Virus record (IMG/VR): IMGVR_UViG_3300037722_001090
DNA length: 64,000 bases
Direction: 5' to 3' (one strand)
DNA from: a virus
Lineage: Duplodnaviria; Caudoviricetes
Shown: in pieces, positions 6,273 to 48,323 of the stretch
How the letters are laid out: every line of letters starts with the position of its first letter
How positions within the stretch are numbered: the stretch's first letter is position 1
Position numbers and translations under genes: made by a program
Notes under the pieces: generated by a model
The model's input: the letters and a program-made list of their open reading frames with translations, nothing else
Told to the model about the DNA's origin: nothing
The model's database searches: none

Positions 6273-7127
6273 TTATATAAACCTCATAGCAAAACCCTCA
6301 TTTATAATGACTGGCTGCACATTTTTACTTCTTAGATTAAGAAATACACCATTAGATTCTTGATATTTTCTTTTTATTCTGAGATTAATTTTATTAATAT
6401 TTACTATGTTACCATCTGCATTAGTAGATATTGTCTTATATCTTCCATATAGCAATTGAAATACCCAGTAGTTTTCTACAGGCACATGCAATATATCAAG
6501 ATTGATTATAGGCGAAGAGCTAAATATAAAAGGTATCAATAATCCACTTTTAATTAGTACGTGAGTTAGATAAACATCGATCCTATTAACATTCCAGTTT
6601 TCTATATAATCCAAGAGAATATTATCAATATCCCCTTTATAGTTAGCACCGTCGAAGACAATGCCATTAAGGCTAAGAACAATACTACTAAAGCTTTTAA
6701 TGTCGCTTTCAAATAACGTCGGGAGTCCGATTTTCCTCTTTCTCCCTCTTGCATAAACAGAAAAATCTTTAACATATTTAGATGTTACAACCCCCAAAAT
6801 TAATTCTTTAATATTGTCAGATACACTAAAGAAGTCTGCAGGTAACGTTACAAACTTAGCTTCTTTAGCAAATGCAGGACTATCAAAACTAAATCCATAC
6901 AAGTCAGTCATGATCTTATGTGTCTTAGTTTTAATATTAGTCTCAACTGATGTAATGTTACCCCAACCATATACTTTGTTTGGCCTAAAAACAAGAGCAT
7001 CGACCATTATACCTGCAGGTAATTTCTTAATAAACATATTATAGTTCTTTAGTTGCACTTCTTGATATGCAGCCTTATTCTTATAACGTATTCTGCAGAG
7101 CAACGAGTAATGGTCTGGATAAATCAT
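6273..7127 (-). CDS. hypothetical protein
   Basis: 284 aa ORF overlapping neighbours. Confidence 0.6.
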   Translation of the reverse strand: MIYPDHYSLLCRIRYKNKAAYQEVQLKNYNMFIKKLPAGIMVDALVFRPNKVYGWGNITSVETNIKTKTHKIMTDLYGFSFDSPAFAKEAKFVTLPADFFSVSDNIKELILGVVTSKYVKDFSVYARGRKRKIGLPTLFESDIKSFSSIVLSLNGIVFDGANYKGDIDNILLDYIENWNVNRIDVYLTHVLIKSGLLIPFIFSSSPIINLDILHVPVENYWVFQLLYGRYKTISTNADGNIVNINKINLRIKRKYQESNGVFLNLRSKNVQPVIINEGFAMRFI

Positions 7128-7654
7128 ACAATAACCTTTTTAACTCGATATCCAAACTTATCCATAAGATTAGCTACCTTACCAAGAGCAACTAGGTCAC
7201 TGTGTTCTAGAGCAACATCTTTGCCCTCTATACTTACTATGAATTTCTTAATTGTAAGCTTTGCAACTTCTTCAGGAGTAACCTGATATCCCAAGTCAGC
7301 AACATCAATTTCAAAATCTGGACGTATTTCATCTTTTTCATAAACACTAGCCCATGGTGGAGCTTCCCAGGTAATCTCTCCAAACATATAACTGGCAAGA
7401 GATTGTACTTTCTCTGTAAGCTTATCAGTATCATCTTCTAAGGAAGAGATCTCAATAAACGGCTTACCGTAATAATTAGGATTCAAGATATCAATAAATA
7501 TATATGCATCATAAGACGTTAAATCTTCTTTGCTATTAAATAAATGTTTGCTCCAGGTTACACCAGCTTGCTTAGCACCATCTAGCATTTCCCATAATTC
7601 AGACCATTTATTTCCAAGGCCTGCTTCATTATCAGCCAATACGAGTATTTTCAT
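7124..7654 (-). CDS. hypothetical protein
   Basis: 176 aa ORF, translationally coupled. Confidence 0.6.
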   Translation of the reverse strand: MKILVLADNEAGLGNKWSELWEMLDGAKQAGVTWSKHLFNSKEDLTSYDAYIFIDILNPNYYGKPFIEISSLEDDTDKLTEKVQSLASYMFGEITWEAPPWASVYEKDEIRPDFEIDVADLGYQVTPEEVAKLTIKKFIVSIEGKDVALEHSDLVALGKVANLMDKFGYRVKKVIV

Positions 7655-8184
7655 TATCTCATCCCTGTTGTCTTATAAGACTTATCAAACATTCTATCAG
7701 ACTGATTAGCAGAGTAAGATAAGCTATTAGTCAAAAGCATTAAGTCTTTAAGTTTATTTTTATGGTGTTCAAAGTATTCTTTTAGAATAGATATTTGAAC
7801 AAAACGATCTTCATGCCGCTGTAAGTCTTTATATTTATTTCTAGCCATAGCTTCTAATCGTTCTCTGCCAGGAGGTTTAATTTTATCTGGATATCCTAGA
7901 AGAAGATCATCTACTCTTTTGTTTAATAGATTGCGACATCTAGACTGGAGTTCCTTATAAGCTACAAGTAAATTATTAAAAGCATTATATGCAATTTGAT
8001 ACTTATTATTTAATGTAGCACAAGTAGTATCAATATCAATACTAGAGCAAGGCATAGACGGCATTGTTACAGTAAGCTCTTCTTGCCATTCAGCCAAAGT
8101 TCTATTTTCATATTCAATTAAAGCATAGTCGATAATTTCTACTTCTTCTATGACGTCTTCTATGACTTCTTCTTGTTGATCCAT
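7654..8184 (-). CDS. helical hypothetical protein
   Basis: 176 aa ORF, coupled. Confidence 0.55.
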   Translation of the reverse strand: MDQQEEVIEDVIEEVEIIDYALIEYENRTLAEWQEELTVTMPSMPCSSIDIDTTCATLNNKYQIAYNAFNNLLVAYKELQSRCRNLLNKRVDDLLLGYPDKIKPPGRERLEAMARNKYKDLQRHEDRFVQISILKEYFEHHKNKLKDLMLLTNSLSYSANQSDRMFDKSYKTTGMR

Positions 8185-28421: not shown

Positions 28422-28499
28422 TGGTGCCCTGTACCGGATTTGAACCGGTGAATCTTCGGGTTTAGAATCCGAGGCCTTACCTGACTTGGCGAACAAGGC
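28422..28499 (-). tRNA. amber suppressor tRNA (anticodon CUA), Gln-like body
   Basis: acceptor GCCTTGT/ACAGGGC, loop TT-CTA-AA, TTCAAAT T loop, encoded CCA. Confidence 0.85.
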
Positions 28500-32976: not shown

Positions 32977-33067
32977 TGGTGATCCGTAAAGGTGTCGATC
33001 CTTTCCGAGGGCTCTTATCTGGAGCTAAGAGTGTATAAAACTCTCCCGCACGCCGGTGCTACGGACC
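32977..33067 (-). tRNA. atypical tRNA, anticodon UAU, long variable arm
   Basis: GGTCCGT/ACGGATC acceptor, AGAGT-TTTATAC-ACTCT, T loop ATCGACA, CCA. Confidence 0.6.
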
Positions 33068-36734: not shown

Positions 36735-37925
36735 TTATCCTTTTAATTGTATTAGAAATTTAATAGTACTTTGATCTTGATTATAGGTAATATATTCATT
36801 ATTGATTAAATCAACACCGCCTTTAGCAAATAGAGAATCATAATCTCCTTTTACTTTAAGCTGAGTTTCATTAAGGCTACCCATCCAAGATTCTCTTCTT
36901 TGGACATCTAGGCTATTGCCAAGATGAACGTCAAACAAAGCCATGATAGCTTCATCTGCACTGCCATTGGCCCAATATGAGCCTCTTCCAGATGTATATC
37001 CATATGATTTTCTTGCTTTATCGGCAAAATAAGTACCATATCCGAACATCTTACCAGAAATAACAGCATTTGTAGGTCTTAGAACAAGACCTGTTTCCAT
37101 AATAGATAGCCAGTTTTCATTACGGCTACCATGGAAAAACATTTCTGTTCTTTTATTTTTTGATTTAGCTACCCAATCATCAAATCGTTTTTGTGTTTTA
37201 TGATTTGTAATACTAAATGCATTATGGAACTTACCTTCAATATCTCCTAGTTTCCCACGAATAGCATTGCGATCAATATCACTAACATTTGACAAGCTTA
37301 GACCCATAGCATCAAGAATAGTTAATTTATCATCAACATTCTCACGCGTAAGTACCGCTTGTTTAACCTGAGAAGACATTGTATCGAGTAGTGCCTGCTC
37401 TCTTACTAGAAGAGGATTAAGTTTATCTGGAGAAAACTCTTTAAGTAGATAATCTTTTACATTACTCATTATGCGAGGAATAACCTGATAAAGATCAATA
37501 AGTAGCTTATTCGTCTCAGGTAAGTCATCAGCTTTCATTAAGGCATTCAGCAATGATTGAGCTTCCTCAACCTGTTTTTGCGTAACAGCACTTGCTGACA
37601 CATTATAAAATGCTGCAACCTCTTTACGTGCATATGCCTGTAGTCCAGCAATAAATCGACTAATAGCAATATCACTAATATCTTGAAAGTCAACTATTTC
37701 ACTAGTGTCTTCAATACATAGGTTAGTAATGTCTTTATATCCTTTAGCTATCTTCTCTCTATAAGTCTTTTCCCACCTACTATTAGGGTAAGTCTTTTTT
37801 TGACTACTAGCACCAACACGACCGAACTCAGCAAGGAAACTTCCATCTCCAGAGTCAGTCATATTATAATATTTATTATTATTTGCATCACCAGTAACCA
37901 TCATTAATTTAATCATTTTAGCCAT
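36735..37925 (-). CDS. PARP-family ADP-ribosyltransferase with WGR and regulatory domains
   Basis: NNNKYY...FGRVG (WGR); FHGSR, GKMFGYGTYFAD..KSYGY, NEYITY (H-Y-E triad). Confidence 0.9.
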   Translation of the reverse strand: MAKMIKLMMVTGDANNNKYYNMTDSGDGSFLAEFGRVGASSQKKTYPNSRWEKTYREKIAKGYKDITNLCIEDTSEIVDFQDISDIAISRFIAGLQAYARKEVAAFYNVSASAVTQKQVEEAQSLLNALMKADDLPETNKLLIDLYQVIPRIMSNVKDYLLKEFSPDKLNPLLVREQALLDTMSSQVKQAVLTRENVDDKLTILDAMGLSLSNVSDIDRNAIRGKLGDIEGKFHNAFSITNHKTQKRFDDWVAKSKNKRTEMFFHGSRNENWLSIMETGLVLRPTNAVISGKMFGYGTYFADKARKSYGYTSGRGSYWANGSADEAIMALFDVHLGNSLDVQRRESWMGSLNETQLKVKGDYDSLFAKGGVDLINNEYITYNQDQSTIKFLIQLKG

Positions 37926-37946
37926 ATATTTACCTTTAAAATAAGC

Positions 37947-38033
37947 TGGAGGAGAGTACTGGACTTGAACCAGTAGAGCTTTTAAGCCCCGACTGTTTAG
38001 CAAACAGCTTCCCTACCATTAGGCGAACTCTCC
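37947..38033 (-). tRNA. tRNA-Ser(GCT)
   Basis: cloverleaf with long variable arm, CCA. Confidence 0.88.
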
Positions 38034-38039
38034 ATTCCA

Positions 38040-39164
38040 CTACTTAAATAAAAATTTAACAATCGTATCAGCACTATTGCGCCATACTTTTTCTAATATA
38101 TCTTTAGACTGAAACTGACCATGTTCTTTACGTAAGCTAAATATAATACCAGTAAAAGGAGTTTTAACTGGCGTATCTTTAGTTACAAAAATAGCAAAAG
38201 ATTTTTGATCTTCATACACCTGAGAAAACGACCAAACAAAGTACAAATCAAGATATGCCATTTGCATCTTAGCTTTAACTTCAGCCATTATATCTGCTAC
38301 TTCAGGAAAATAAGTAAGAACTTCATCTTCTTCGCCTGCAAGAATAAAAGGAATAATATTTTTAGGAAGAAAAATATTATCATTACCCTTAAGCTGATGT
38401 AGCGCAACGTATGTTTTGCTTTTAATTTTCATTCGCAAACCATTTACATCACGAACAACGATACCTTCAAAAGTAGGATCCGACTCTTCTTTCTCATTCA
38501 GAAAAGCAATAACCTCATCAGTATCTTTAAATTTATGAGATTCTGGTCTTTTAAAGTTATGTACTTTTGCGATTACATCGCATAGCCTTGTACTAAATTC
38601 AAGAAGCAATTCATCATATATATGAAATATAGTCAGTAAAATTGCTTTAGATTCAGGATATAGTCGAACTATTTTATTCCATATAGAACAAAACTCAAAT
38701 ACAAGACAAATATCATCCGCAGCCGTAATCTCGTCTGCAGTTTTACCAAGAGCTTCCCAAAAAAATTCAGCCCAAGTCTTACCGCATTCATGAATATTAT
38801 ATTCAGCAAAAGAACCACGAGTATTTACTCTCCAAGTTCCATTATAGTTATATAGAAGAATCAAAGATCCATCTTCTTTATCAAGAGCAGTAGATCCTTC
38901 CCAAACAAATTTATTAGTAATTTCAAGAGCTTCACCGGCATTAAAGAAGCGATTAAAAGCTTTAGCTACAACTTTCCATGTATCTATCTCAAGGACAAGT
39001 CCACGACATTCCATAACAATTGGAAGCATTTTTTGAGATTCAATTTGGTCATAATTAAGGATAACTAAAGGATCTACTGGATGCTTAACCACTTTAATTC
39101 CAAAATGAACAGTAAGGTCTTCCAAAGTCTTACCGTTAAGCAAATATTCTTGTACATGTAACAT
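38040..39164 (-). CDS. T4 Rnl1-like RNA ligase
   Basis: ECRGLV, F.RFFN.GE, KEDGSL, FEFCS..N.IV..Y, EGIVV, KIKS. Confidence 0.88.
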   Translation of the reverse strand: MLHVQEYLLNGKTLEDLTVHFGIKVVKHPVDPLVILNYDQIESQKMLPIVMECRGLVLEIDTWKVVAKAFNRFFNAGEALEITNKFVWEGSTALDKEDGSLILLYNYNGTWRVNTRGSFAEYNIHECGKTWAEFFWEALGKTADEITAADDICLVFEFCSIWNKIVRLYPESKAILLTIFHIYDELLLEFSTRLCDVIAKVHNFKRPESHKFKDTDEVIAFLNEKEESDPTFEGIVVRDVNGLRMKIKSKTYVALHQLKGNDNIFLPKNIIPFILAGEEDEVLTYFPEVADIMAEVKAKMQMAYLDLYFVWSFSQVYEDQKSFAIFVTKDTPVKTPFTGIIFSLRKEHGQFQSKDILEKVWRNSADTIVKFLFK

Positions 39165-39318
39165 AATTAGTCCCTTAAAATCTGAATGTAGCACAAATAT
39201 TAATACCTGCAGCAAAAATCCAATAAAGAGACATCCTAATATCTCCTTTTATCAAATACGTAATACTAGCTATAGTCATTAATGTTATGATAATTAAAGG
39301 AAAGATCTTTTCCATAAG

Positions 39319-39846
39319 TTAAATTACTTTCAAAAACCTACTGACAAGTTCCATATCATCAAACACATCATTGCCTGCAGAGTTATTTCGTATTACATAA
39401 GCAGGATGCCATGTAGCCATTAATGGAACACCTTGGTATGAATGCCATTTACCTCGCAATACAGAAATAGCATTACTTTTACCACTTAAGAACTGAGCAG
39501 CAAACTTACCAAGTGTAATAATGACCTTAGGTTTAACCTCTGCTATTTGACTAATAAGGTAAGGAGTACAGGCAGATATTTCATCAGGCTCAGGATTTCT
39601 ATTGCTAGGAGGTCTACATTTACAAATATTAGCAATATAAACATCTTCTCTCTTAACACCAAGAACTTTAATATATTTATCTAACATCTTACCTGATTGC
39701 CCACAGAAAGGCACACCAGTAGCATCCTCAGTAGCCCCAGGAGCCTCTCCAACGAACATAATGTCAGCAGTAATACTACCGCTACCAATTACAATATTAG
39801 TTCGTGTGTTATGAAGTTTACATTTCTTACAGTCTGTAATTATCAT
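39319..39846 (-). CDS. uracil-DNA glycosylase family 4
   Basis: CKKC Fe-S, VGEAPG..ED..G.PF.G.SG, KCRPPSNR, WHPAY. Confidence 0.93.
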   Translation of the reverse strand: MIITDCKKCKLHNTRTNIVIGSGSITADIMFVGEAPGATEDATGVPFCGQSGKMLDKYIKVLGVKREDVYIANICKCRPPSNRNPEPDEISACTPYLISQIAEVKPKVIITLGKFAAQFLSGKSNAISVLRGKWHSYQGVPLMATWHPAYVIRNNSAGNDVFDDMELVSRFLKVI

Positions 39847-40148
39847 CTTATCACCACCTAAAGCAAATACTAGTATATGGATCTCTTTGATCACCATGTG
39901 AAACTTCTACTGTATATCCATCTACTTTAAGTAATGTTTTTACAAGTGCTTCCTGAGTATAACTTAAACGGATAGGATTAGTTCCTGTAGTAGCCCAACT
40001 GCCAAGCGAAATACTGGTTTTACCGGCTTTAGCAGCATCTATAATTCTATCATTAAGCCATTCCATGAATAGCTTTATATTATTATTATCTACATTTTTT
40101 GATAATTCTTTAGCCATAGATGCTTTAATCATGTCCTTCTCCAATATT

Positions 40149-41579
40149 TTACAGTTTATTTTTATCAAATACAGGACGTAGACTTTCAACCCTAGGACAA
40201 GACATAACTCCTTCATCCTTAGTGAATTCTTGGCTTGTACAAATAACAATGCGATTCATAAAAGAGTCAGGATCAGCAGCAAACTCAAGCTTAAATGCTC
40301 TAGTCAACAATTTACCAGTACCAACGCCCGATCTCTTAAGTTCGCCTCTGTCATTAATATACTCAACAATAAGCCTCCCAAGCATAGGAGGATATGGAGT
40401 ACCATCAGTCTTATAAGATGTTTTAGCTACTTCCCAACCTACAATCTTACAGTCAACAGGTTCAGTTTTACATTTAATCTTGATCTGACTATTGTCTTTA
40501 GTAAATCCATACTTGCCATTACCAGCCTTAAGGACAATACCCTCTTTACCTTCAGAGATAAGCTTATTGGCAATAACATAAGCTTCTGCTTTATTGGAAA
40601 CCTTCTCACCAACAACAATAGCAAGTCTTTGGTTATTTATAATCATTGGCTGGACAGTAGTGAGTAGATACTCTCTTCTAACATCATATTCATCAGGAAT
40701 TGATTCAGAATCAAACTCATCTCTATCAAGAATTTCAAAGATTTTTACTTTAATTCTAGAGGCAATATCTTCCATCTCAGCTTTACGCTTAAGATATTTA
40801 GCCCAGCCAGAGCCAACCTTGCCAGTTTTACCTTTAAAATCATTTTCAGTTTTAGTAAAATCAAAACCAGAAAAAGATTGAATTTCTTCTAGATTATCAT
40901 CACATTCTACTTCACAATCTACAACTTTATTCTTAAGATTAAGTTTCTCGATAAAAGTATTTAGAAAACTAAAGTTTTCAATAGGCAAACCAGATCTTCC
41001 AATAGGAGACTTTAGTTCACAGAATGGAGTTCTATCAATCCTACCATCAGTATCAGTATACCAAAAAGTCCTGAAGCCATTAATCTTATGTCCAGGATAT
41101 GCCCCTCTTGTATAATCCATCTTATCAATAGATGCTTCAGATTTAGCACCAGAACAATTAAAGTCAAGGATTAACTTTTCTTCAAATGCAGCATTAACAA
41201 TAGCACCACCAATACCAATACTGGCAAGATCTTTCTGAAGACATTTAACATACCATTTCTTTTCATAATTAGTACAAGTAATAAGAAAGTTATTAATTGC
41301 ACCAAGAGCATTATGTCCAGTGAGAGATCTATTTCTAAGGCTATTAGTTAATATTACAAAATTATCCCACGTACTAAGACCCATTTTCCCAAGATAAGTT
41401 TCATTATCTACAGGTTTAATCTCTTTAATGCCAAACGTAACACGATCATCCATCGCCAAATAAAGAAACTCTTTAAGATGAGCAGTTTCTGCATTATCTT
41501 TCAAGAGCTTTTTTTTATCATTAGTTCCAGTTGTTTTTTCTAACTCTTCAAGTATACGAATAAACGGATTTCTTAGCAT
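40149..41579 (-). CDS. ATP-dependent DNA ligase
   Basis: T4-like N-terminal domain, HKINGFR (motif I variant), EGIVLK, KIK, OB domain GVGTG. Confidence 0.82.
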   Translation of the reverse strand: MLRNPFIRILEELEKTTGTNDKKKLLKDNAETAHLKEFLYLAMDDRVTFGIKEIKPVDNETYLGKMGLSTWDNFVILTNSLRNRSLTGHNALGAINNFLITCTNYEKKWYVKCLQKDLASIGIGGAIVNAAFEEKLILDFNCSGAKSEASIDKMDYTRGAYPGHKINGFRTFWYTDTDGRIDRTPFCELKSPIGRSGLPIENFSFLNTFIEKLNLKNKVVDCEVECDDNLEEIQSFSGFDFTKTENDFKGKTGKVGSGWAKYLKRKAEMEDIASRIKVKIFEILDRDEFDSESIPDEYDVRREYLLTTVQPMIINNQRLAIVVGEKVSNKAEAYVIANKLISEGKEGIVLKAGNGKYGFTKDNSQIKIKCKTEPVDCKIVGWEVAKTSYKTDGTPYPPMLGRLIVEYINDRGELKRSGVGTGKLLTRAFKLEFAADPDSFMNRIVICTSQEFTKDEGVMSCPRVESLRPVFDKNKL

Positions 41580-41606
41580 ATAAATAATTCCTTATGTTTT
41601 TAATAG

Positions 41607-41689
41607 TAGCCGGAGAGAGACTCGAACTCTCAATCCGCAAGGGCAAGGGATTTTAAGTCCCTCGTGTATCGCCATTCCACCACCCGGCC
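41607..41689 (-). tRNA. tRNA-Leu(TAA)
   Basis: class II cloverleaf, CCA not encoded. Confidence 0.88.
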
Positions 41690-41696
41690 ATTGTAT

Positions 41697-42086
41697 TTAA
41701 ACTCTATAGACAAATACTTTTAACCCAAGAGCTTTAGCATTTGCAATCATATTTTTTGTACCAGGACTAACACCATCCCAAATAGCAATAAGCGCTTCAG
41801 CATTTTCAGCCATCAACTTATTACGCCTAAGTCCAGCATAAGCATCATACTTTTTACCGAATTTATTAACTTTAACTCTAGCATCAGGATGATTAATATC
41901 ATCCCATTTAGCAGGATAAGGATCAACTACTACGTTATTCTCCTTTGCCCATACTTCACCAAGTGTATCAACTCCAGGTGCACGGCCACTAACTACGCAT
42001 GAAACATCAAAACCTGAAGCCTTAATAGCCTCTCTAATAGCATCTAAGCTTACAATACTTCTACTTCCAGCGATAATAGTCTTCAT
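41697..42086 (-). CDS. SLOG/YspA-like protein (DUF2493)
   Basis: IIAGSR, SG.APGVD.LGE.WA, AG..RN..M, WDG.S.GT..MI. Confidence 0.85.
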   Translation of the reverse strand: MKTIIAGSRSIVSLDAIREAIKASGFDVSCVVSGRAPGVDTLGEVWAKENNVVVDPYPAKWDDINHPDARVKVNKFGKKYDAYAGLRRNKLMAENAEALIAIWDGVSPGTKNMIANAKALGLKVFVYRV

Positions 42087-42326
42087 TAATCCTCCATCAT
42101 TACTTTAAGATCAGCATCACAATATTTACACTCTTCAGCAGCTTTATGCCAAACAACTTCCCATCTACCTTTATTTTTAGGTAGAATATGAGCATTGTTA
42201 CCAGCATCTATTTGTGTTCTTTTAATTACAAGTGCTAGCATTTCACTTTTAACGTTAGCTCTAAGGTGAATGACCTTGGCTTTAGGTAGTTCAATATCCA
42301 TATTTTTATTCCTATAGAGTTTAAAA

Positions 42327-42362
42327 TGGTGCCCCTGGTAGGATTCGAACCTACGACAAGTG
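42327..42362 (-). pseudogene. 3' half of an interrupted tRNA
   Basis: GTAGG-TTCGAAT-CCTAC-CAGGGGC-A-CCA; acceptor strand pairs with the 5' half at 43085-43117. Confidence 0.78.
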
Positions 42363-42363
42363 A

Positions 42364-42373
42364 GTTAATAACA
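42364..42373 (+). promoter_or_regulatory. GTTAATAACA variant motif upstream of endonuclease gene
   Basis: one-base variant. Confidence 0.55.
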
Positions 42374-42408
42374 AATATGATTTCGAATCATAAAATAAAG
42401 GAGCTACC

Positions 42409-42987
42409 ATGTTAGTAAAATGTAAAAATTGCAATAAAGAATTTGATAAAATACCAAGTCAAATTGCAAAATCTAAAAATAATTTTTGTTCTAAATCATG
42501 TAGTGCAACATTTAACAATAAAGGTAAGCAGCGTAATCCACCAAAGATAAGAATTTGTAGACAATGTAGTTTAACATATACGTATAAGCGAAAAGAAAAC
42601 ACATTAACTTTTTGCTCTAACTGCCTTAATACACTTAAAATAGATCGCAATAAAAACATAAGTTTTGTTTCAGAACAAATTAAGCAACTCACAATTGGAG
42701 AATATCGAAATAAAGAATCCGTAAAAAGCAAACACCCATCATGGAAACATGCTCATATTCGTATACTTAATAGATCGTGGAATGCAGATTTAACTAAAAT
42801 ACCATGTCAAAACTGTAAATATGATAAACATATTGAACTATGCCATATTAAATCTGTAGCATCATTTAAAGACAATGCAGTGCTATTAGAAGTTAATAGT
42901 CCAGATAATAATCTTGTACTTTGCAGAAATTGTCATTGGGAGCTTGATAATAATATTATTAAGATTGAAGATATACCTAAAAGATAA
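42409..42987 (+). CDS. HNH endonuclease with zinc-finger repeats
   Basis: CKNC, FCSKSC, CQNC...HIELCHIK...NNLVLCRNCHWE. Confidence 0.85.
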   Translation: MLVKCKNCNKEFDKIPSQIAKSKNNFCSKSCSATFNNKGKQRNPPKIRICRQCSLTYTYKRKENTLTFCSNCLNTLKIDRNKNISFVSEQIKQLTIGEYRNKESVKSKHPSWKHAHIRILNRSWNADLTKIPCQNCKYDKHIELCHIKSVASFKDNAVLLEVNSPDNNLVLCRNCHWELDNNIIKIEDIPKR

Positions 42988-42990
42988 TAA

Positions 42991-43075
42991 TGGAGCGCCC
43001 TGGAGGAATCGAACCTCTCACATCCATCCAACTTTTTATGTACGGGTTTAGAAGACCCGTGTTGGAGCAGGGCGC
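42991..43075 (-). tRNA. non-canonical tRNA-like RNA with UCU (Arg) loop and no D arm
   Basis: GCGCCCTG/CAGGGCGC, ACGGGT-CTTCTAA-ACCCGT, T arm, CCA; TCCAAC/GTTGGA helix instead of a D arm. Confidence 0.6.
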
Positions 43076-43084
43076 ACTACCTTA

Positions 43085-43117
43085 AACCTTCTGCTCTATC
43101 CGCTGAGCTACAGAGGC
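43085..43117 (-). pseudogene. 5' half of an interrupted tRNA
   Basis: GCCTCTG-TA-GCTC-AGCGGATA-GAGC-A-GAAGG-TT. Confidence 0.78.
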
Positions 43118-43132
43118 ACATCAATTATATAG

Positions 43133-43771
43133 CTATCGCCAATTAATAGCACTCCAATGAAAAGGAGAACTGGGGAACTTAGGTTGATCAAGTTTTATAA
43201 AATCAGAATTCTGAGGAACTGGTAGTTTCATGCTTAGTTTTTCCAGAACTTTTCTTGTAATATTCATAGCGACAGAATCATCACACAATATATTTTCAAA
43301 CGGCATACCATGATGAATTAAAAGCTTACTTATTTCAATATCAATTTGCTTTGCTTCTTCTTCAGTCTGCATGCGACCTTTTGGATTATATTCTTTTTGC
43401 CTCTTAAGAAAAATATTCATATTATTGAATGAATTAAATAGTCCAATTACCATACCTTCAAAATGTTCAATAACATCAGGCTCACTAGTAGGTGTCTTGC
43501 TCCTCTTATTATAATACAAAGATAGCAAAAGAGGAGAATCTGTTACAATAACATCAAGTTGATTTAGCAACCTAAATTGCCTATGATATTGCTTTGCTGT
43601 AATATACAATTGGTTATCAAGCATATTAAAATGCTTATCCCATACTTTTTCTTTAGCATATTCAGTAACAAGCTCTGCATTTAAACCAGCCTTCTTAAGC
43701 ATACTATAAACTTCAGCAGCCGTTGTACTTTTGCCTGTTCCAGGCCCTCCATACAGATTTACAACTAACAT
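43133..43771 (-). CDS. NadR-like AAA/kinase (AAA_28)
   Basis: GGPGTGKST, VTEYAK..W, VTDSPLL, R.QTEEEA. Confidence 0.8.
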   Translation of the reverse strand: MLVVNLYGGPGTGKSTTAAEVYSMLKKAGLNAELVTEYAKEKVWDKHFNMLDNQLYITAKQYHRQFRLLNQLDVIVTDSPLLLSLYYNKRSKTPTSEPDVIEHFEGMVIGLFNSFNNMNIFLKRQKEYNPKGRMQTEEEAKQIDIEISKLLIHHGMPFENILCDDSVAMNITRKVLEKLSMKLPVPQNSDFIKLDQPKFPSSPFHWSAINWR

Positions 43772-44326
43772 ATTATAAATCCCCTTTCTATACAGACAGG
43801 ACATTTCTTTTCATGAAAATTTTTAGTCCAATTACAACTAGTTTTTTGTGGTCTATTACTCTCATGTCCAAGTGGACATGCCTCTACATATGGTTCATGT
43901 CGATAGCCGCCATATAAAGCACATTGACTGTGTGTACTCTCCCCAAATTCATTAGCAAGAAGTCTGCACTGATCTGTCATTGAATTACAACTCATATAGT
44001 AAGTATGTTCACAAGTCATTATAGTCACTCTTATTTTTCAAAGATAGGGTTAAACAATATAATATAACAACTGCCATCACCAAGCCTACCAAAAGACCAT
44101 GATGCATCAACAATAAACTCACCAAGAACAATAATAAGCCTTTTAGTAATTTTATTTTTTACTTCAACAAGTAAAGGTGTATATTCTTCTATGTCTTTTT
44201 TCTTAGCTTTTTCTCTAAAGCAATAATCACCATTAACATGCTTTTGATAATCAATAGCTTTGTCAATATCTGCTTCAATGCCGAGACCCTTAGCTAATAT
44301 GTAAAGCTTTTCTACCTTAACGCCTT

Positions 44327-45751
44327 TCATAGTAACTCCGCAGCAAGTTCTGCCAGCTCACTTCTTTCACCTTTAGTCAAAATAATATGTGCAGCAATTT
44401 TTTCGTTTTTAAATCTTTCAGCAACATACGTAAGTCCATTACTAGAAGAATCAACGTAAGGGTTATCAATCTGATACGGGTCGCCAGTAAGAATAATCTT
44501 AGTACCTTCACCTGCTCTTGTAATAATAGTTTTAACCTCGTGAGGGGTCAAATTCTGCGCCTCATCAACGATAAAATACTGCTTAGGGATAGACCTACCT
44601 CTGATAAAAGAAAGCGCTCCTACCTCAAGTTTACCTATTGCCTGAAGATAATCAACAGGACTCATATTGCCAGCCTCTTTATCGAAACTGCCTTTATGTA
44701 GAATCTTATTATCTGCTTTACCTAGGATTACTTCGATATTATCCCAAATAGGTTGCATCCAAGGAGCCATCTTTTCATTAAGTGTACCAGGCAAAAATCC
44801 AATATCTTGTTTTCCAAGAGAAATGACAGGTCTAGTTACAAGAACGCGATCAAAAGTATCAGTTTCCGTAGCACCGTAAAGTCCAGCAGCAATAGCCATT
44901 AAAGTTTTACCTGTGCCTGCTTTACCAATTAAAGTTACTAGCTTAATATTCGGATCAAGAAGCAAGTCCATAGCAAAGCGCTGTTCTCTATTCCTAGGAA
45001 TCAATCCAGAAGGAGCATTATCTTTTGTAATATCTGTAATCCGACAAAGAATATCTAAGGATGAATCATAGCGAGTAAGAACTGAATGCTTTGGATCTAC
45101 CGAAGATACCAAAGTAACACATTCATTAGGAGAAAAAAGAACACTGCTGTTGTCATGTGTAATAACACCCAGTTCCGAAATAATTTCCAGTTCCGAAACA
45201 CGAACACATCCATCACCATCTTTTTTATAGAGATCATCAATTTGCGCACCATTAACTCCTAACTGTGAATGTCCAGTAAAAAGAGTATCTATACTAACTC
45301 TATCATTATGATATACTTCAGAGAGAATACCAATAGCATTAGCTTTAATTCTAGCATTAGCATCATTAGAGACAAAGACAACTTTTACATCAGAATTACC
45401 ATAAACAGAAGTAGAGTAATAATGAGCAACAGCAATAATTCTATTATCAGCAACAATCTGTGAAAGCTCCCTTGGCATACCATCAAAATAAGCGGTAGGA
45501 CAAAAAGAAATTTTCAGATTACCACCACTCTTAAGGTCTACCCCTGTATCTAGCTGGCCTTCTGCGCGGAGAGAATCAAGATTTCTACCAGTCTCTCTAG
45601 CATTACGGCCAATCTCATTCATTTCACTTTTAAAGTTATCAATCTCCTCAATAACAGTAATAGGAATAATAATATCATTATCATTAAACCTAAAAATAGC
45701 ATTAGGGTCATGAAGTAAAACATTTGTATCTAGCACAAAGACCTTTTTCAT
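44327..45751 (-). CDS. phoH: PhoH-like protein with N-terminal PIN domain
   Basis: VLDTNVLLHDP, GKAGTGKT, IRGRS, DEAQN, GDPYQID. Confidence 0.93.
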   Translation of the reverse strand: MKKVFVLDTNVLLHDPNAIFRFNDNDIIIPITVIEEIDNFKSEMNEIGRNARETGRNLDSLRAEGQLDTGVDLKSGGNLKISFCPTAYFDGMPRELSQIVADNRIIAVAHYYSTSVYGNSDVKVVFVSNDANARIKANAIGILSEVYHNDRVSIDTLFTGHSQLGVNGAQIDDLYKKDGDGCVRVSELEIISELGVITHDNSSVLFSPNECVTLVSSVDPKHSVLTRYDSSLDILCRITDITKDNAPSGLIPRNREQRFAMDLLLDPNIKLVTLIGKAGTGKTLMAIAAGLYGATETDTFDRVLVTRPVISLGKQDIGFLPGTLNEKMAPWMQPIWDNIEVILGKADNKILHKGSFDKEAGNMSPVDYLQAIGKLEVGALSFIRGRSIPKQYFIVDEAQNLTPHEVKTIITRAGEGTKIILTGDPYQIDNPYVDSSSNGLTYVAERFKNEKIAAHIILTKGERSELAELAAELL

Positions 45752-45765
45752 ATCAGGTCCTTTCA

Positions 45766-46242
45766 TTATTTGGATTGTTTTAAAAACAAAGAAACATTTT
45801 CTGGAACATATTGATCAATATTTTTACCATGCTTACGTAACTCTCTTACAAGTGAAGAGCTTATAGTCTTATAAAATCCATTTGAATTTATAAAAACAGT
45901 ATAAGCATTACCGATATTATGATTAATATCAGCAAGTCTAGATTCTTCAATCATATCTTGAGTATCACGAACACCACGAACAATATATTTGATATTATTC
46001 TCTTTCATGAAATCAACAACAAGATTATCAGTAGAAACTATCTCAATTATATCACACGGTATTTGTCTATAATATTGTTTAATAAGTTCAATCCGTGATG
46101 TTTCACAAAGCATATACTTTTTGTTAGGATTATTTGCAACAAGAATATATACCTTATCAAATATATTTCTAGCTTGGTGTACAAGCTCAACATGTCCAAC
46201 TGTAAACGGGTCAAATGATCCTGGAAATACACAACTACTCAT
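45766..46242 (-). CDS. coaD: phosphopantetheine adenylyltransferase
   Basis: FPGSFDPFTVGH, VRGVR, ISSSLVRE. Confidence 0.88.
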   Translation of the reverse strand: MSSCVFPGSFDPFTVGHVELVHQARNIFDKVYILVANNPNKKYMLCETSRIELIKQYYRQIPCDIIEIVSTDNLVVDFMKENNIKYIVRGVRDTQDMIEESRLADINHNIGNAYTVFINSNGFYKTISSSLVRELRKHGKNIDQYVPENVSLFLKQSK

Positions 46243-48304: not shown

Positions 48305-48323
48305 TGGAAGAGGGTGTGGGATT
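48305..48323 (-). pseudogene. 3' remnant of an interrupted tRNA-Ser-like gene
   Basis: AAT-CCCAC-ACCCTCT-T-CCA pairs with GGAGGGT at 48912-48918. Confidence 0.7.

What the first reader, a model, noticed from the sequence alone, without database searches (positions are those of the whole stretch)
42327..43117. HNH cassette that splits a canonical tRNA at the anticodon and brings a non-canonical tRNA with it
Seen: the 5' half (43117-43085) and 3' half (42362-42327) of one tRNA share a 7 bp acceptor (GCCTCTG/CAGGGGC). They are separated by about 720 bp holding a complete tRNA-like RNA with a UCU loop and an opposite-strand HNH gene. No group I or II intron core is present. Inference: a homing element that destroys its target tRNA and supplies a divergent, nuclease-immune replacement instead of splicing.
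Basis: partly seen in the sequence, partly recalled or inferred. Interest (0 to 1): 0.65.

Follow-up and report, generated by a model that had tools for sequence, protein, structure and literature searches.

The report
Nuclease cassette swaps phage arginine tRNA
A selfish DNA-cutting gene has broken this phage's normal arginine tRNA gene in two and sits beside an oddly rewired spare tRNA; relatives of the enzyme do the same in many phages or sit inside self-splicing introns at that same tRNA.

Summary
Confirmed, with corrections. The halves are a canonical tRNA-Arg(UCU) type gene: 57 of 59 nt match an intact viral tRNA-Arg(TCT). The anticodon arm is lost rather than cleanly split, so the halves cannot rejoin, and no intron is present. 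Between them lie an intact HNH gene and an 85-nt UCU RNA with no D hairpin (8/4 acceptor/T stems, covarying clamp stem, small pseudoknot). Across 146 viral or metagenomic loci of this HNH family, 97 adjoin an Arg tRNA; 16 of 20 intron-free loci with both orphan halves pair 7/7. Elsewhere the family lies in group I introns at the Arg anticodon. HNH-adjacent tRNAs are enriched for altered T and D loops. In cultured phages, Ep030's D-armless RNA plus a distant HNH homolog replaces the tRNA-Arg of phiEa21-4. Best reading: intronless homing into tRNA-Arg, made tolerable by a target-evading spare tRNA. Cleavage, immunity and aminoacylation are untested, and no empty allele of this phage was found. 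The spare RNA also exists without HNH. The scan reported both features before on other DNA; I found no paper on either.

The parts
43092..43117 (-). 5' remnant of the original canonical tRNA-Arg(UCU)-type gene (positions 1-26: acceptor strand and D arm with G18 G19 A20). 43091-43085 may continue it but does not pair with the 3' side
   Evidence: 25/26 identical to intact tRNA-Arg(TCT) L032; 47 of 59 other viral matches to this 5' pattern or 49 of 61 lines in the tally read TCT (see full report)
42991..43075 (-). Complete D-armless tRNA-like RNA, anticodon UCU (43052-43050): 8-bp acceptor, 5-bp clamp stem (43065-43061 with 43032-43028) enclosing the anticodon arm, pseudoknot (43041-43038 with 43023-43020), GGA moved to just before a 4-bp T stem, discriminator U, encoded CCA
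   Evidence: fold z -2.9; 16 of 27 pairs with two-sided changes in 14 homologs, 0/500 shuffles
42409..42987 (+). HNH endonuclease gene, 192 aa, antisense to the tRNAs; N-terminal Cys-rich zinc-binding repeats, C-terminal HNH domain; all family-invariant residues present
   Evidence: AlphaFold pLDDT 90.7; weak structural matches to HNH nucleases only, none at E<=0.001
42342..42389 (.). Inverted repeat GATTCGAA - 32 nt - TTCGAATC upstream of the HNH ribosome-binding site; the right arm is the T loop of the 3' remnant; candidate operator or regulatory hairpin
   Evidence: same repeat and 32-33 nt spacing in L017, L019, L020, L341; 38/141 family loci vs 18/572 control windows
42327..42359 (-). 3' remnant of the original tRNA-Arg gene (positions 44-76: variable loop, T arm, acceptor strand, A73, CCA)
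   Evidence: 32/33 identical to intact tRNA-Arg(TCT) L032

Best explanation
A free-standing HNH homing-endonuclease cassette invaded the phage's canonical tRNA-Arg(UCU) gene and replaced its function. SHOWN by sequence: the old gene is in two dead pieces missing the anticodon arm; an intact HNH gene and a complete D-armless UCU RNA lie between them; the HNH family is tied to tRNA-Arg genes in three states (split target plus spare tRNA, next to a divergent tRNA-Arg, or inside a group I intron at the Arg anticodon). INFERRED: the enzyme recognises DNA of a standard tRNA-Arg gene, probably including the T-loop motif at its normal distance from the anticodon, and cuts or nicks a co-infecting phage's allele; repair from the cassette-bearing genome copies the cassette across. 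The spare tRNA keeps AGA decoding and escapes cutting because its order and spacing differ (GGA moved 3', T loop about 13 nt further from the anticodon). The conserved D- and T-loop remnants can act as short homology arms, which would let the cassette jump between unrelated phages. The inverted copy of the T loop in front of the HNH gene may be an autorepression operator (least certain step).
For: Target identity. Family link: 97/146 viral or metagenomic loci adjoin an Arg tRNA, 93 of them a UCU one (58 D-armless, 35 ARAGORN-called). Split halves: 16 of 20 intron-free loci with both halves pair 7/7, each with its own acceptor sequence, which points to separate invasions. Serial invasion: L020 has two tandem 5' halves and the inner one matches the 5' half of L341. 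Intron state: Rfam group I intron around the HNH in L281 (56.3 bits, above cut-off) and weaker in L304, L291, L339, L228; intron-borne members are not one clade (p-AU 0.0003). Escape signature: only 14/47 HNH-adjacent TCT genes have a standard T loop at standard spacing plus D-loop GG, against 24/29, 44/59 and 270/390 in control sets (Fisher p 1e-5, 5e-6, 4e-7). Filled/empty pair: Ep030 has D-armless UCU RNA plus HNH homolog exactly where phiEa21-4 and ST-3 have canonical tRNA-Arg, flanks 97-99% identical. Precedent: SegB recognises GGTTCRANTCC of tRNA genes (PMC2330249); I-TevI autorepresses at an operator resembling its homing site (PMC2988022). AGA is 39% of Arg codons in the window.
Against: No empty allele of this phage was found. 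No cleavage data. The Ep030 homolog is distant (38% over 88 aa), co-oriented, has an in-frame stop and left no remnants. 14 of 47 adjacent TCT genes look fully standard and would need another escape route. About a third of viral or metagenomic loci show no Arg tRNA by my filters. The Fisher tests treat related sequences as independent, and five of the 47 are D-armless genes that ARAGORN happened to call (14/42 without them). The D-armless RNA has U73, whereas the Arg discriminator is A/G73 (PMC9976931). The rest of the 205-kb genome could not be searched for another tRNA-Arg(UCU).
Confidence: 0.72

Rival explanations
1. Degenerate intron origin: the locus began as an HNH-containing group I intron in tRNA-Arg; once a spare tRNA arrived, the ribozyme and anticodon arm were deleted. 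This is an origin story that ends in the same present state.
For: The same family is intron-borne, antisense to the tRNA, at the Arg anticodon in phages and bacteria, and intron members are interspersed with free-standing ones. The bases after the window's 5' half resemble the first bases of the intron in L037.
Against: No ribozyme trace: about 40 nt of non-tRNA sequence on the 3' side versus 150-230 nt in introns, no P7. All nearest HNH relatives (59-64% identity) are intron-free with the same layout. The resemblance to L037 is about 10 nt and may be chance.
Confidence: 0.12
2. No targeted homing: the HNH is a passenger of tRNA clusters, the remnants are scars of ordinary recombination between tRNA genes, and the D-armless tRNA spreads because it evades host tRNA-cleaving defences.
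For: The D-armless RNA is common without HNH. tRNA genes are recombination and integration hot spots (established knowledge; truncated copies such as L060, L071). Phage tRNA variants can counter anticodon nucleases (own knowledge; PMC13096335 for Septu).
Against: A passenger would not be specific for Arg (97/146), nor sit in introns at the Arg anticodon, nor be flanked by matching halves of one gene in 16 loci, nor be linked to altered T loops.
Confidence: 0.12
3. The halves still function: they are spliced or assemble as a two-piece tRNA.
For: The acceptor strands stay complementary at many loci; the phage encodes an RNA-ligase-like ORF nearby (38040-39215; my reading of the sequence, not tested).
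Against: The anticodon arm is missing or unpaired here; in L017, L019, L020, L341 even the 5' T-stem strand is gone and in L017 the D arm has decayed; no intron.
Confidence: 0.04
4. The cassette is a homing element, but the D-armless RNA does not decode; it is a decoy or substrate mimic, and the phage simply lost tRNA-Arg. (Independent of the other rivals.)
For: No known bacterial tRNA lacks an arm (PMC11551756). Some 8/4 allo-tRNAs are not charged by E. coli synthetases (PMC7609411). U73 here.
Against: It takes the exact slot of a canonical tRNA-Arg and alternates with canonical UCU genes among HNH relatives; UCU loop, GGA, T loop and CCA are invariant in the 14 aligned homologs (partly fixed by the search pattern); E. 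coli can translate with an engineered D-armless tRNA (PMC11551756).
Confidence: 0.2

Closest known systems
T4 SegB, free-standing GIY-YIG homing endonuclease of the tRNA cluster (PMC2330249; PMC13096335)
   Same: Free-standing phage nuclease in a tRNA region; targets tRNA genes through the T-loop motif GGTTCRANTCC; spreads with neighbouring tRNA genes.
   Different: GIY-YIG, not HNH; lies between intact tRNA genes; cuts many tRNA genes including T4's own and relies on low expression; no split target and no rewired replacement tRNA described.
Gene-splitting free-standing HNH genes: Aeh1 mobE in nrdA, T4 mobA in gene 60 (PMC2988022)
   Same: An HNH gene inserted inside an essential gene without an intron.
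   Different: There the host gene survives in pieces as proteins; here the RNA gene is destroyed and replaced by a second gene inside the insert.
Group I introns in bacterial and phage tRNA anticodon loops (Rfam RF00028; tRNA-Arg(CCU) introns from my own knowledge)
   Same: Same target gene and, at L281, L304, L228 and others, the same HNH family.
   Different: The window has no ribozyme and the exons cannot rebuild a tRNA.
8/4 allo-tRNAs (Mukai et al. 2017, as reviewed in PMC7609411) and D-armless mitochondrial tRNA-Ser
   Same: 8-bp acceptor with 4-bp T stem; loss of the D hairpin, respectively.
   Different: Allo-tRNAs keep a D arm and a long variable arm; mitochondrial D-armless tRNAs simply lack the arm. 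Here a clamp stem encloses the anticodon arm and the GGA lies just before the T arm. The review does not mention phages.

Membership tests
Free-standing homing endonuclease (intronless homing) | Intact nuclease gene outside an intron or intein | tested here: met
   192-aa ORF with all invariant residues of 35 homologs; no intron
Free-standing homing endonuclease (intronless homing) | Sporadic presence: allele without the nuclease in close relatives | tested here: inconclusive
   No sister phage available for this locus; met for a distant homolog, Ep030 vs phiEa21-4
Free-standing homing endonuclease (intronless homing) | Site-specific cleavage of the empty allele, own allele spared | not testable with these tools
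   Only indirect: split targets and altered loops in replacements
Free-standing homing endonuclease (intronless homing) | Biased inheritance in mixed infection | not testable with these tools
   Needs crosses
Group I intron in tRNA | Ribozyme core (P7 etc.) | tested here: not met
   No RF00028 match at E<=10 while HNH-containing introns are detected in relatives; no P7 motif pair
Group I intron in tRNA | Exons rebuild a complete tRNA | tested here: not met
   Anticodon stem strands do not pair; positions 27-43 not recoverable
Canonical tRNA-Arg(UCU), for the spare RNA | Cloverleaf with D hairpin and 7/5 stems | tested here: not met
   8/4 stems, clamp stem instead of D hairpin; RF00005 gathering not reached
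Canonical tRNA-Arg(UCU), for the spare RNA | Arg identity set A20, C35, U/G36, A/G73 | tested here: inconclusive
   C35 U36 present; a GGA is invariant but relocated; discriminator is U here, G in most homologs (PMC9976931)
Canonical tRNA-Arg(UCU), for the spare RNA | Charged with arginine and used in translation | not testable with these tools
8/4 allo-tRNA | 8-bp acceptor plus 4-bp T stem | tested here: met
   helices 1 and 5
8/4 allo-tRNA | D arm and long variable arm of tRNA-Sec/Ser type | tested here: not met

The most novel reading that the evidence does not exclude
A class of homing nucleases colonises an essential RNA gene by 'swap instead of splice', switching repeatedly between intron-borne and tRNA-carrying forms; its pressure on the T-loop and D-loop DNA sequence selects for unusual tRNA architectures, including a natural non-cloverleaf, pseudoknotted tRNA-Arg that works in bacterial translation.
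Probability: 0.4. Interest if true: 0.82.

Novelty: new variant of a known kind. Interest (0 to 1): 0.6.

Why it matters
It would add a third way for a homing nuclease to live inside an essential gene, beside splicing and genes-in-pieces: destroy the gene and supply an immune copy. It offers a selective cause for odd phage tRNAs, such as compensated G19-C56 swaps and D-armless forms, other than host defence. It also makes testable the claim that bacterial translation uses only cloverleaf tRNAs (PMC11551756): cultured phages that differ only at this slot exist (Ep030 vs phiEa21-4), and the D-armless gene is present but unannotated in Av-05, Lazarus and GRLPWR.

Tried and rejected
Whole genome not held. 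Empty allele of this phage: the 71-aa neighbour has no homolog, the kinase has no close relative (best 58-59%), and the contigs with DNA that carry the neighbour also carry the HNH (one short contig without DNA was uninformative). My first DNA pattern for the D-armless RNA found nothing; a pattern built from phage hits found 17. One search had an off-by-one error in the 3' acceptor strand and is superseded. Promoter scan: 8 sites against 5.3 expected, no terminators; uninformative. No solved structure of a close relative (best E 0.04, none at E<=0.001). Rfam tRNA-Sec match (33.8 bits, below cut-off 47) reflects shape only and was rejected. Lys, Ile2/Met or Asn identity for the split tRNA was rejected. 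Ten literature searches found no paper on the cassette or the D-armless phage tRNA; the library lacks most subscription papers. An earlier scan note says part of the D-armless claim 'fell' on checking; I could not see which part.

Full report
Setting. The window is part of a large AT-rich phage genome (34% G+C; a 205-kb contig carries the same proteins). Nearly all genes and all tRNAs are on the minus strand. The HNH gene is one of few plus-strand genes.

Observation. On the minus strand, in order: a tRNA 5' piece from 43117, a complete tRNA-like RNA at 43075-42991, the antisense HNH gene 42987-42409, a short spacer, and a tRNA 3' piece ending in CCA at 42327. The outer acceptor strands pair 7/7. 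Standard finders miss all three RNA pieces. The region is identical, or nearly, in two further assemblies.

Identity of the broken gene. A viral search with the 5' pattern gave 60 loci; in the tally of 61 matches with readable sequence plus the two copies of this locus, 49 read TCT and most of the rest are other Arg anticodons. One intact tRNA-Arg(TCT), L032, differs from the window's pieces at 1 of 26 and 1 of 33 positions. The 5' piece has A20, the main Arg determinant (PMC9976931). The anticodon arm is not recoverable: GAAGG does not pair with CTCAC, and the 14 nt upstream of CTCAC resemble the spacer of related cassettes. So the secure remnants are positions 1-26 and 44-76. That anticodon was UCU is an inference from the closest intact gene and from relatives such as L122, where the 5' piece runs through the TCT.

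No splicing here. Rfam finds no intron at E<=10, there is no P7 motif pair, and there is no room: the stop side holds only the spare RNA and the start side about 40 nt of spacer. The same scan does detect HNH-containing introns in relatives.

The spare RNA. It folds as an 8-bp acceptor, a 5-bp clamp stem that encloses the anticodon arm, and a 4-bp T stem. In 14 homologs, 16 of 27 pairs show two-sided changes and 97.9% of cells pair; no shuffle of 500 reaches this and slid controls fall to about 40%. A 4-bp pseudoknot has one pair that takes four Watson-Crick forms; its other three pairs are invariant and partly fixed by my search pattern, so it rests on one covarying pair. I looked for it after reading an earlier scan note. 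The GGA normally in the D loop lies just before the T arm. The RNA occurs unannotated and without an adjacent annotated HNH in cultured phages GRLPWR, Av-05 and Lazarus, so it is an independent phage gene class that the nuclease has captured.

The nuclease family. The protein has Cys-rich N-terminal repeats and a C-terminal HNH domain with every family-invariant residue; the model is confident (pLDDT 90.7) and has only weak matches to HNH nucleases. I gathered 225 non-redundant loci. Of 146 viral or metagenomic loci (one is this locus), 97 adjoin an Arg tRNA: 58 D-armless UCU by pattern, 35 ARAGORN-called TCT. Twenty-five have both an orphan 5' half on the stop side and a 3' remnant on the start side; 21 pair 7/7, against a mean of 2.4 and a maximum of 9 in 20,000 permutations. 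Five of these are phage group I introns; of the 20 intron-free ones, 16 pair 7/7. The acceptor sequences differ between loci, so dead halves that still match are best read as separate invasions of each phage's own gene. L020 carries two tandem 5' halves, the inner one matching that of L341: a trace of serial invasion. The nearest relatives (L017, L019, L020, L341; 59-64% identity) have the same layout but a different D-armless subtype; L018 has the same subtype; L181, L101 and L193 carry canonical-looking spares on the other side of the HNH.

Splice or swap. In bacterial genomes (Chloroflexota, Cyanobacteriota, Planctomycetota, Bacteroidota) and some phage contigs, the same family is an antisense ORF inside group I introns at the tRNA-Arg anticodon (L281 above the Rfam cut-off). 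On a 57-protein tree, intron-borne members are rejected as one clade (p-AU 0.0003), and phage introns are interspersed with free-standing members (few branches are strongly supported, so direction is not determined).

Signs of escape. Among ARAGORN-called TCT genes next to the HNH, 14 of 47 have a standard T loop at standard distance plus D-loop GG, versus 24/29 TCT genes found by pattern, 44/59 other Arg genes and 270/390 non-Arg genes in the same loci. Deviations include compensated G19-C56 swaps, altered T loops and longer variable regions. Relatedness inflates the p-values. An inverted copy of the T loop sits 32-33 nt from the remnant's T loop in front of the HNH gene (38/141 loci vs 18/572 control windows). 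Together these suggest the enzyme reads the T-loop sequence, as SegB does (PMC2330249), and may repress itself there, as I-TevI does at its operator (PMC2988022). Both are inferences.

Filled and empty alleles. None exists in the databases for this phage. For a distant homolog, Erwinia phage Ep030 has a D-armless UCU RNA plus HNH (with an in-frame stop; record unverified) exactly in place of the canonical tRNA-Arg of phiEa21-4 and ST-3, with flanks 97-99% identical. A reverse case exists for isoleucine: TomSawyer has HNH plus canonical tRNA-Ile where Wipeout has a D-armless-looking GAU RNA.

Verdict. Best explanation: intronless homing into tRNA-Arg(UCU) with a target-evading spare tRNA (0.72). 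It works like SegB-type intronless homing; membership rests on untested cleavage and inheritance. It is not a group I intron. The spare RNA is neither a canonical tRNA nor an allo-tRNA by structure; that it decodes AGA is likely (about 0.75-0.8) but untested. No paper was found on either feature in ten searches of an open-access library. The scan has reported both on other genomes, and two sister cassettes in this genome; my tests were run independently of those notes except where listed. Novelty: new variant of a known kind. Interest 0.6.

Noticed in passing
window 48305-48918 (-): Second swap cassette: tRNA-Ser 5' piece (acceptor GGAGGGT), complete tRNA-Ser(TGA) at about 48762-48848, a 143-aa ORF, and a 3' remnant ACCCTCT-T-CCA. 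Already noted by the scan.
   Followed up: partly
window 32977-33067 (-): Odd tRNA with UAU anticodon, 8/4 stems, tiny D hairpin and extra stems, abutting tRNA-Cys; resembles the 8/4 allo-tRNA(UAU) five-stem group described in PMC7609411.
   Followed up: partly
window 28422-28499 (-): tRNA with CUA anticodon (amber suppressor type) in a genome whose genes read under the standard code.
   Followed up: no
window 54741-54813 (-): tRNA-like element with T loop and CCA missed by ARAGORN and Rfam; weak hit to my model.
   Followed up: no
L346:979-1449 and L350:280-380: Streptomyces phage TomSawyer has HNH plus canonical tRNA-Ile(GAT) where Wipeout has an unannotated D-armless-looking RNA with a GAU loop: the D-armless design may not be limited to Arg and swaps may run both ways.
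   Followed up: partly
L037:6086-6760 and about 6920-7770: Two tRNA genes (Arg-UCU and a second with a CUCAU start) each interrupted by what looks like a group I intron with a sense-strand HNH ORF of another family.
   Followed up: no
L270-L305 (Hymenobacter genomes): HNH homologs sit tail-to-tail with tRNA-Arg(CCU) genes that have a compensated C19-G56 swap in bacterial chromosomes.
   Followed up: no
L017:3080-3161 and L020:1208-1289 (-): ARAGORN miscalls the second D-armless UCU subtype as tRNA-Asp(atc), so such genes may be mis-annotated as well as missed.
   Followed up: partly
window 36735-45766 (-): Neighbourhood holds PARP-like, RNA-ligase-like, uracil-DNA glycosylase, ATP-dependent DNA ligase, SLOG, AAA kinase and PhoH genes (the first two are my reading of the sequences).
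   Followed up: no
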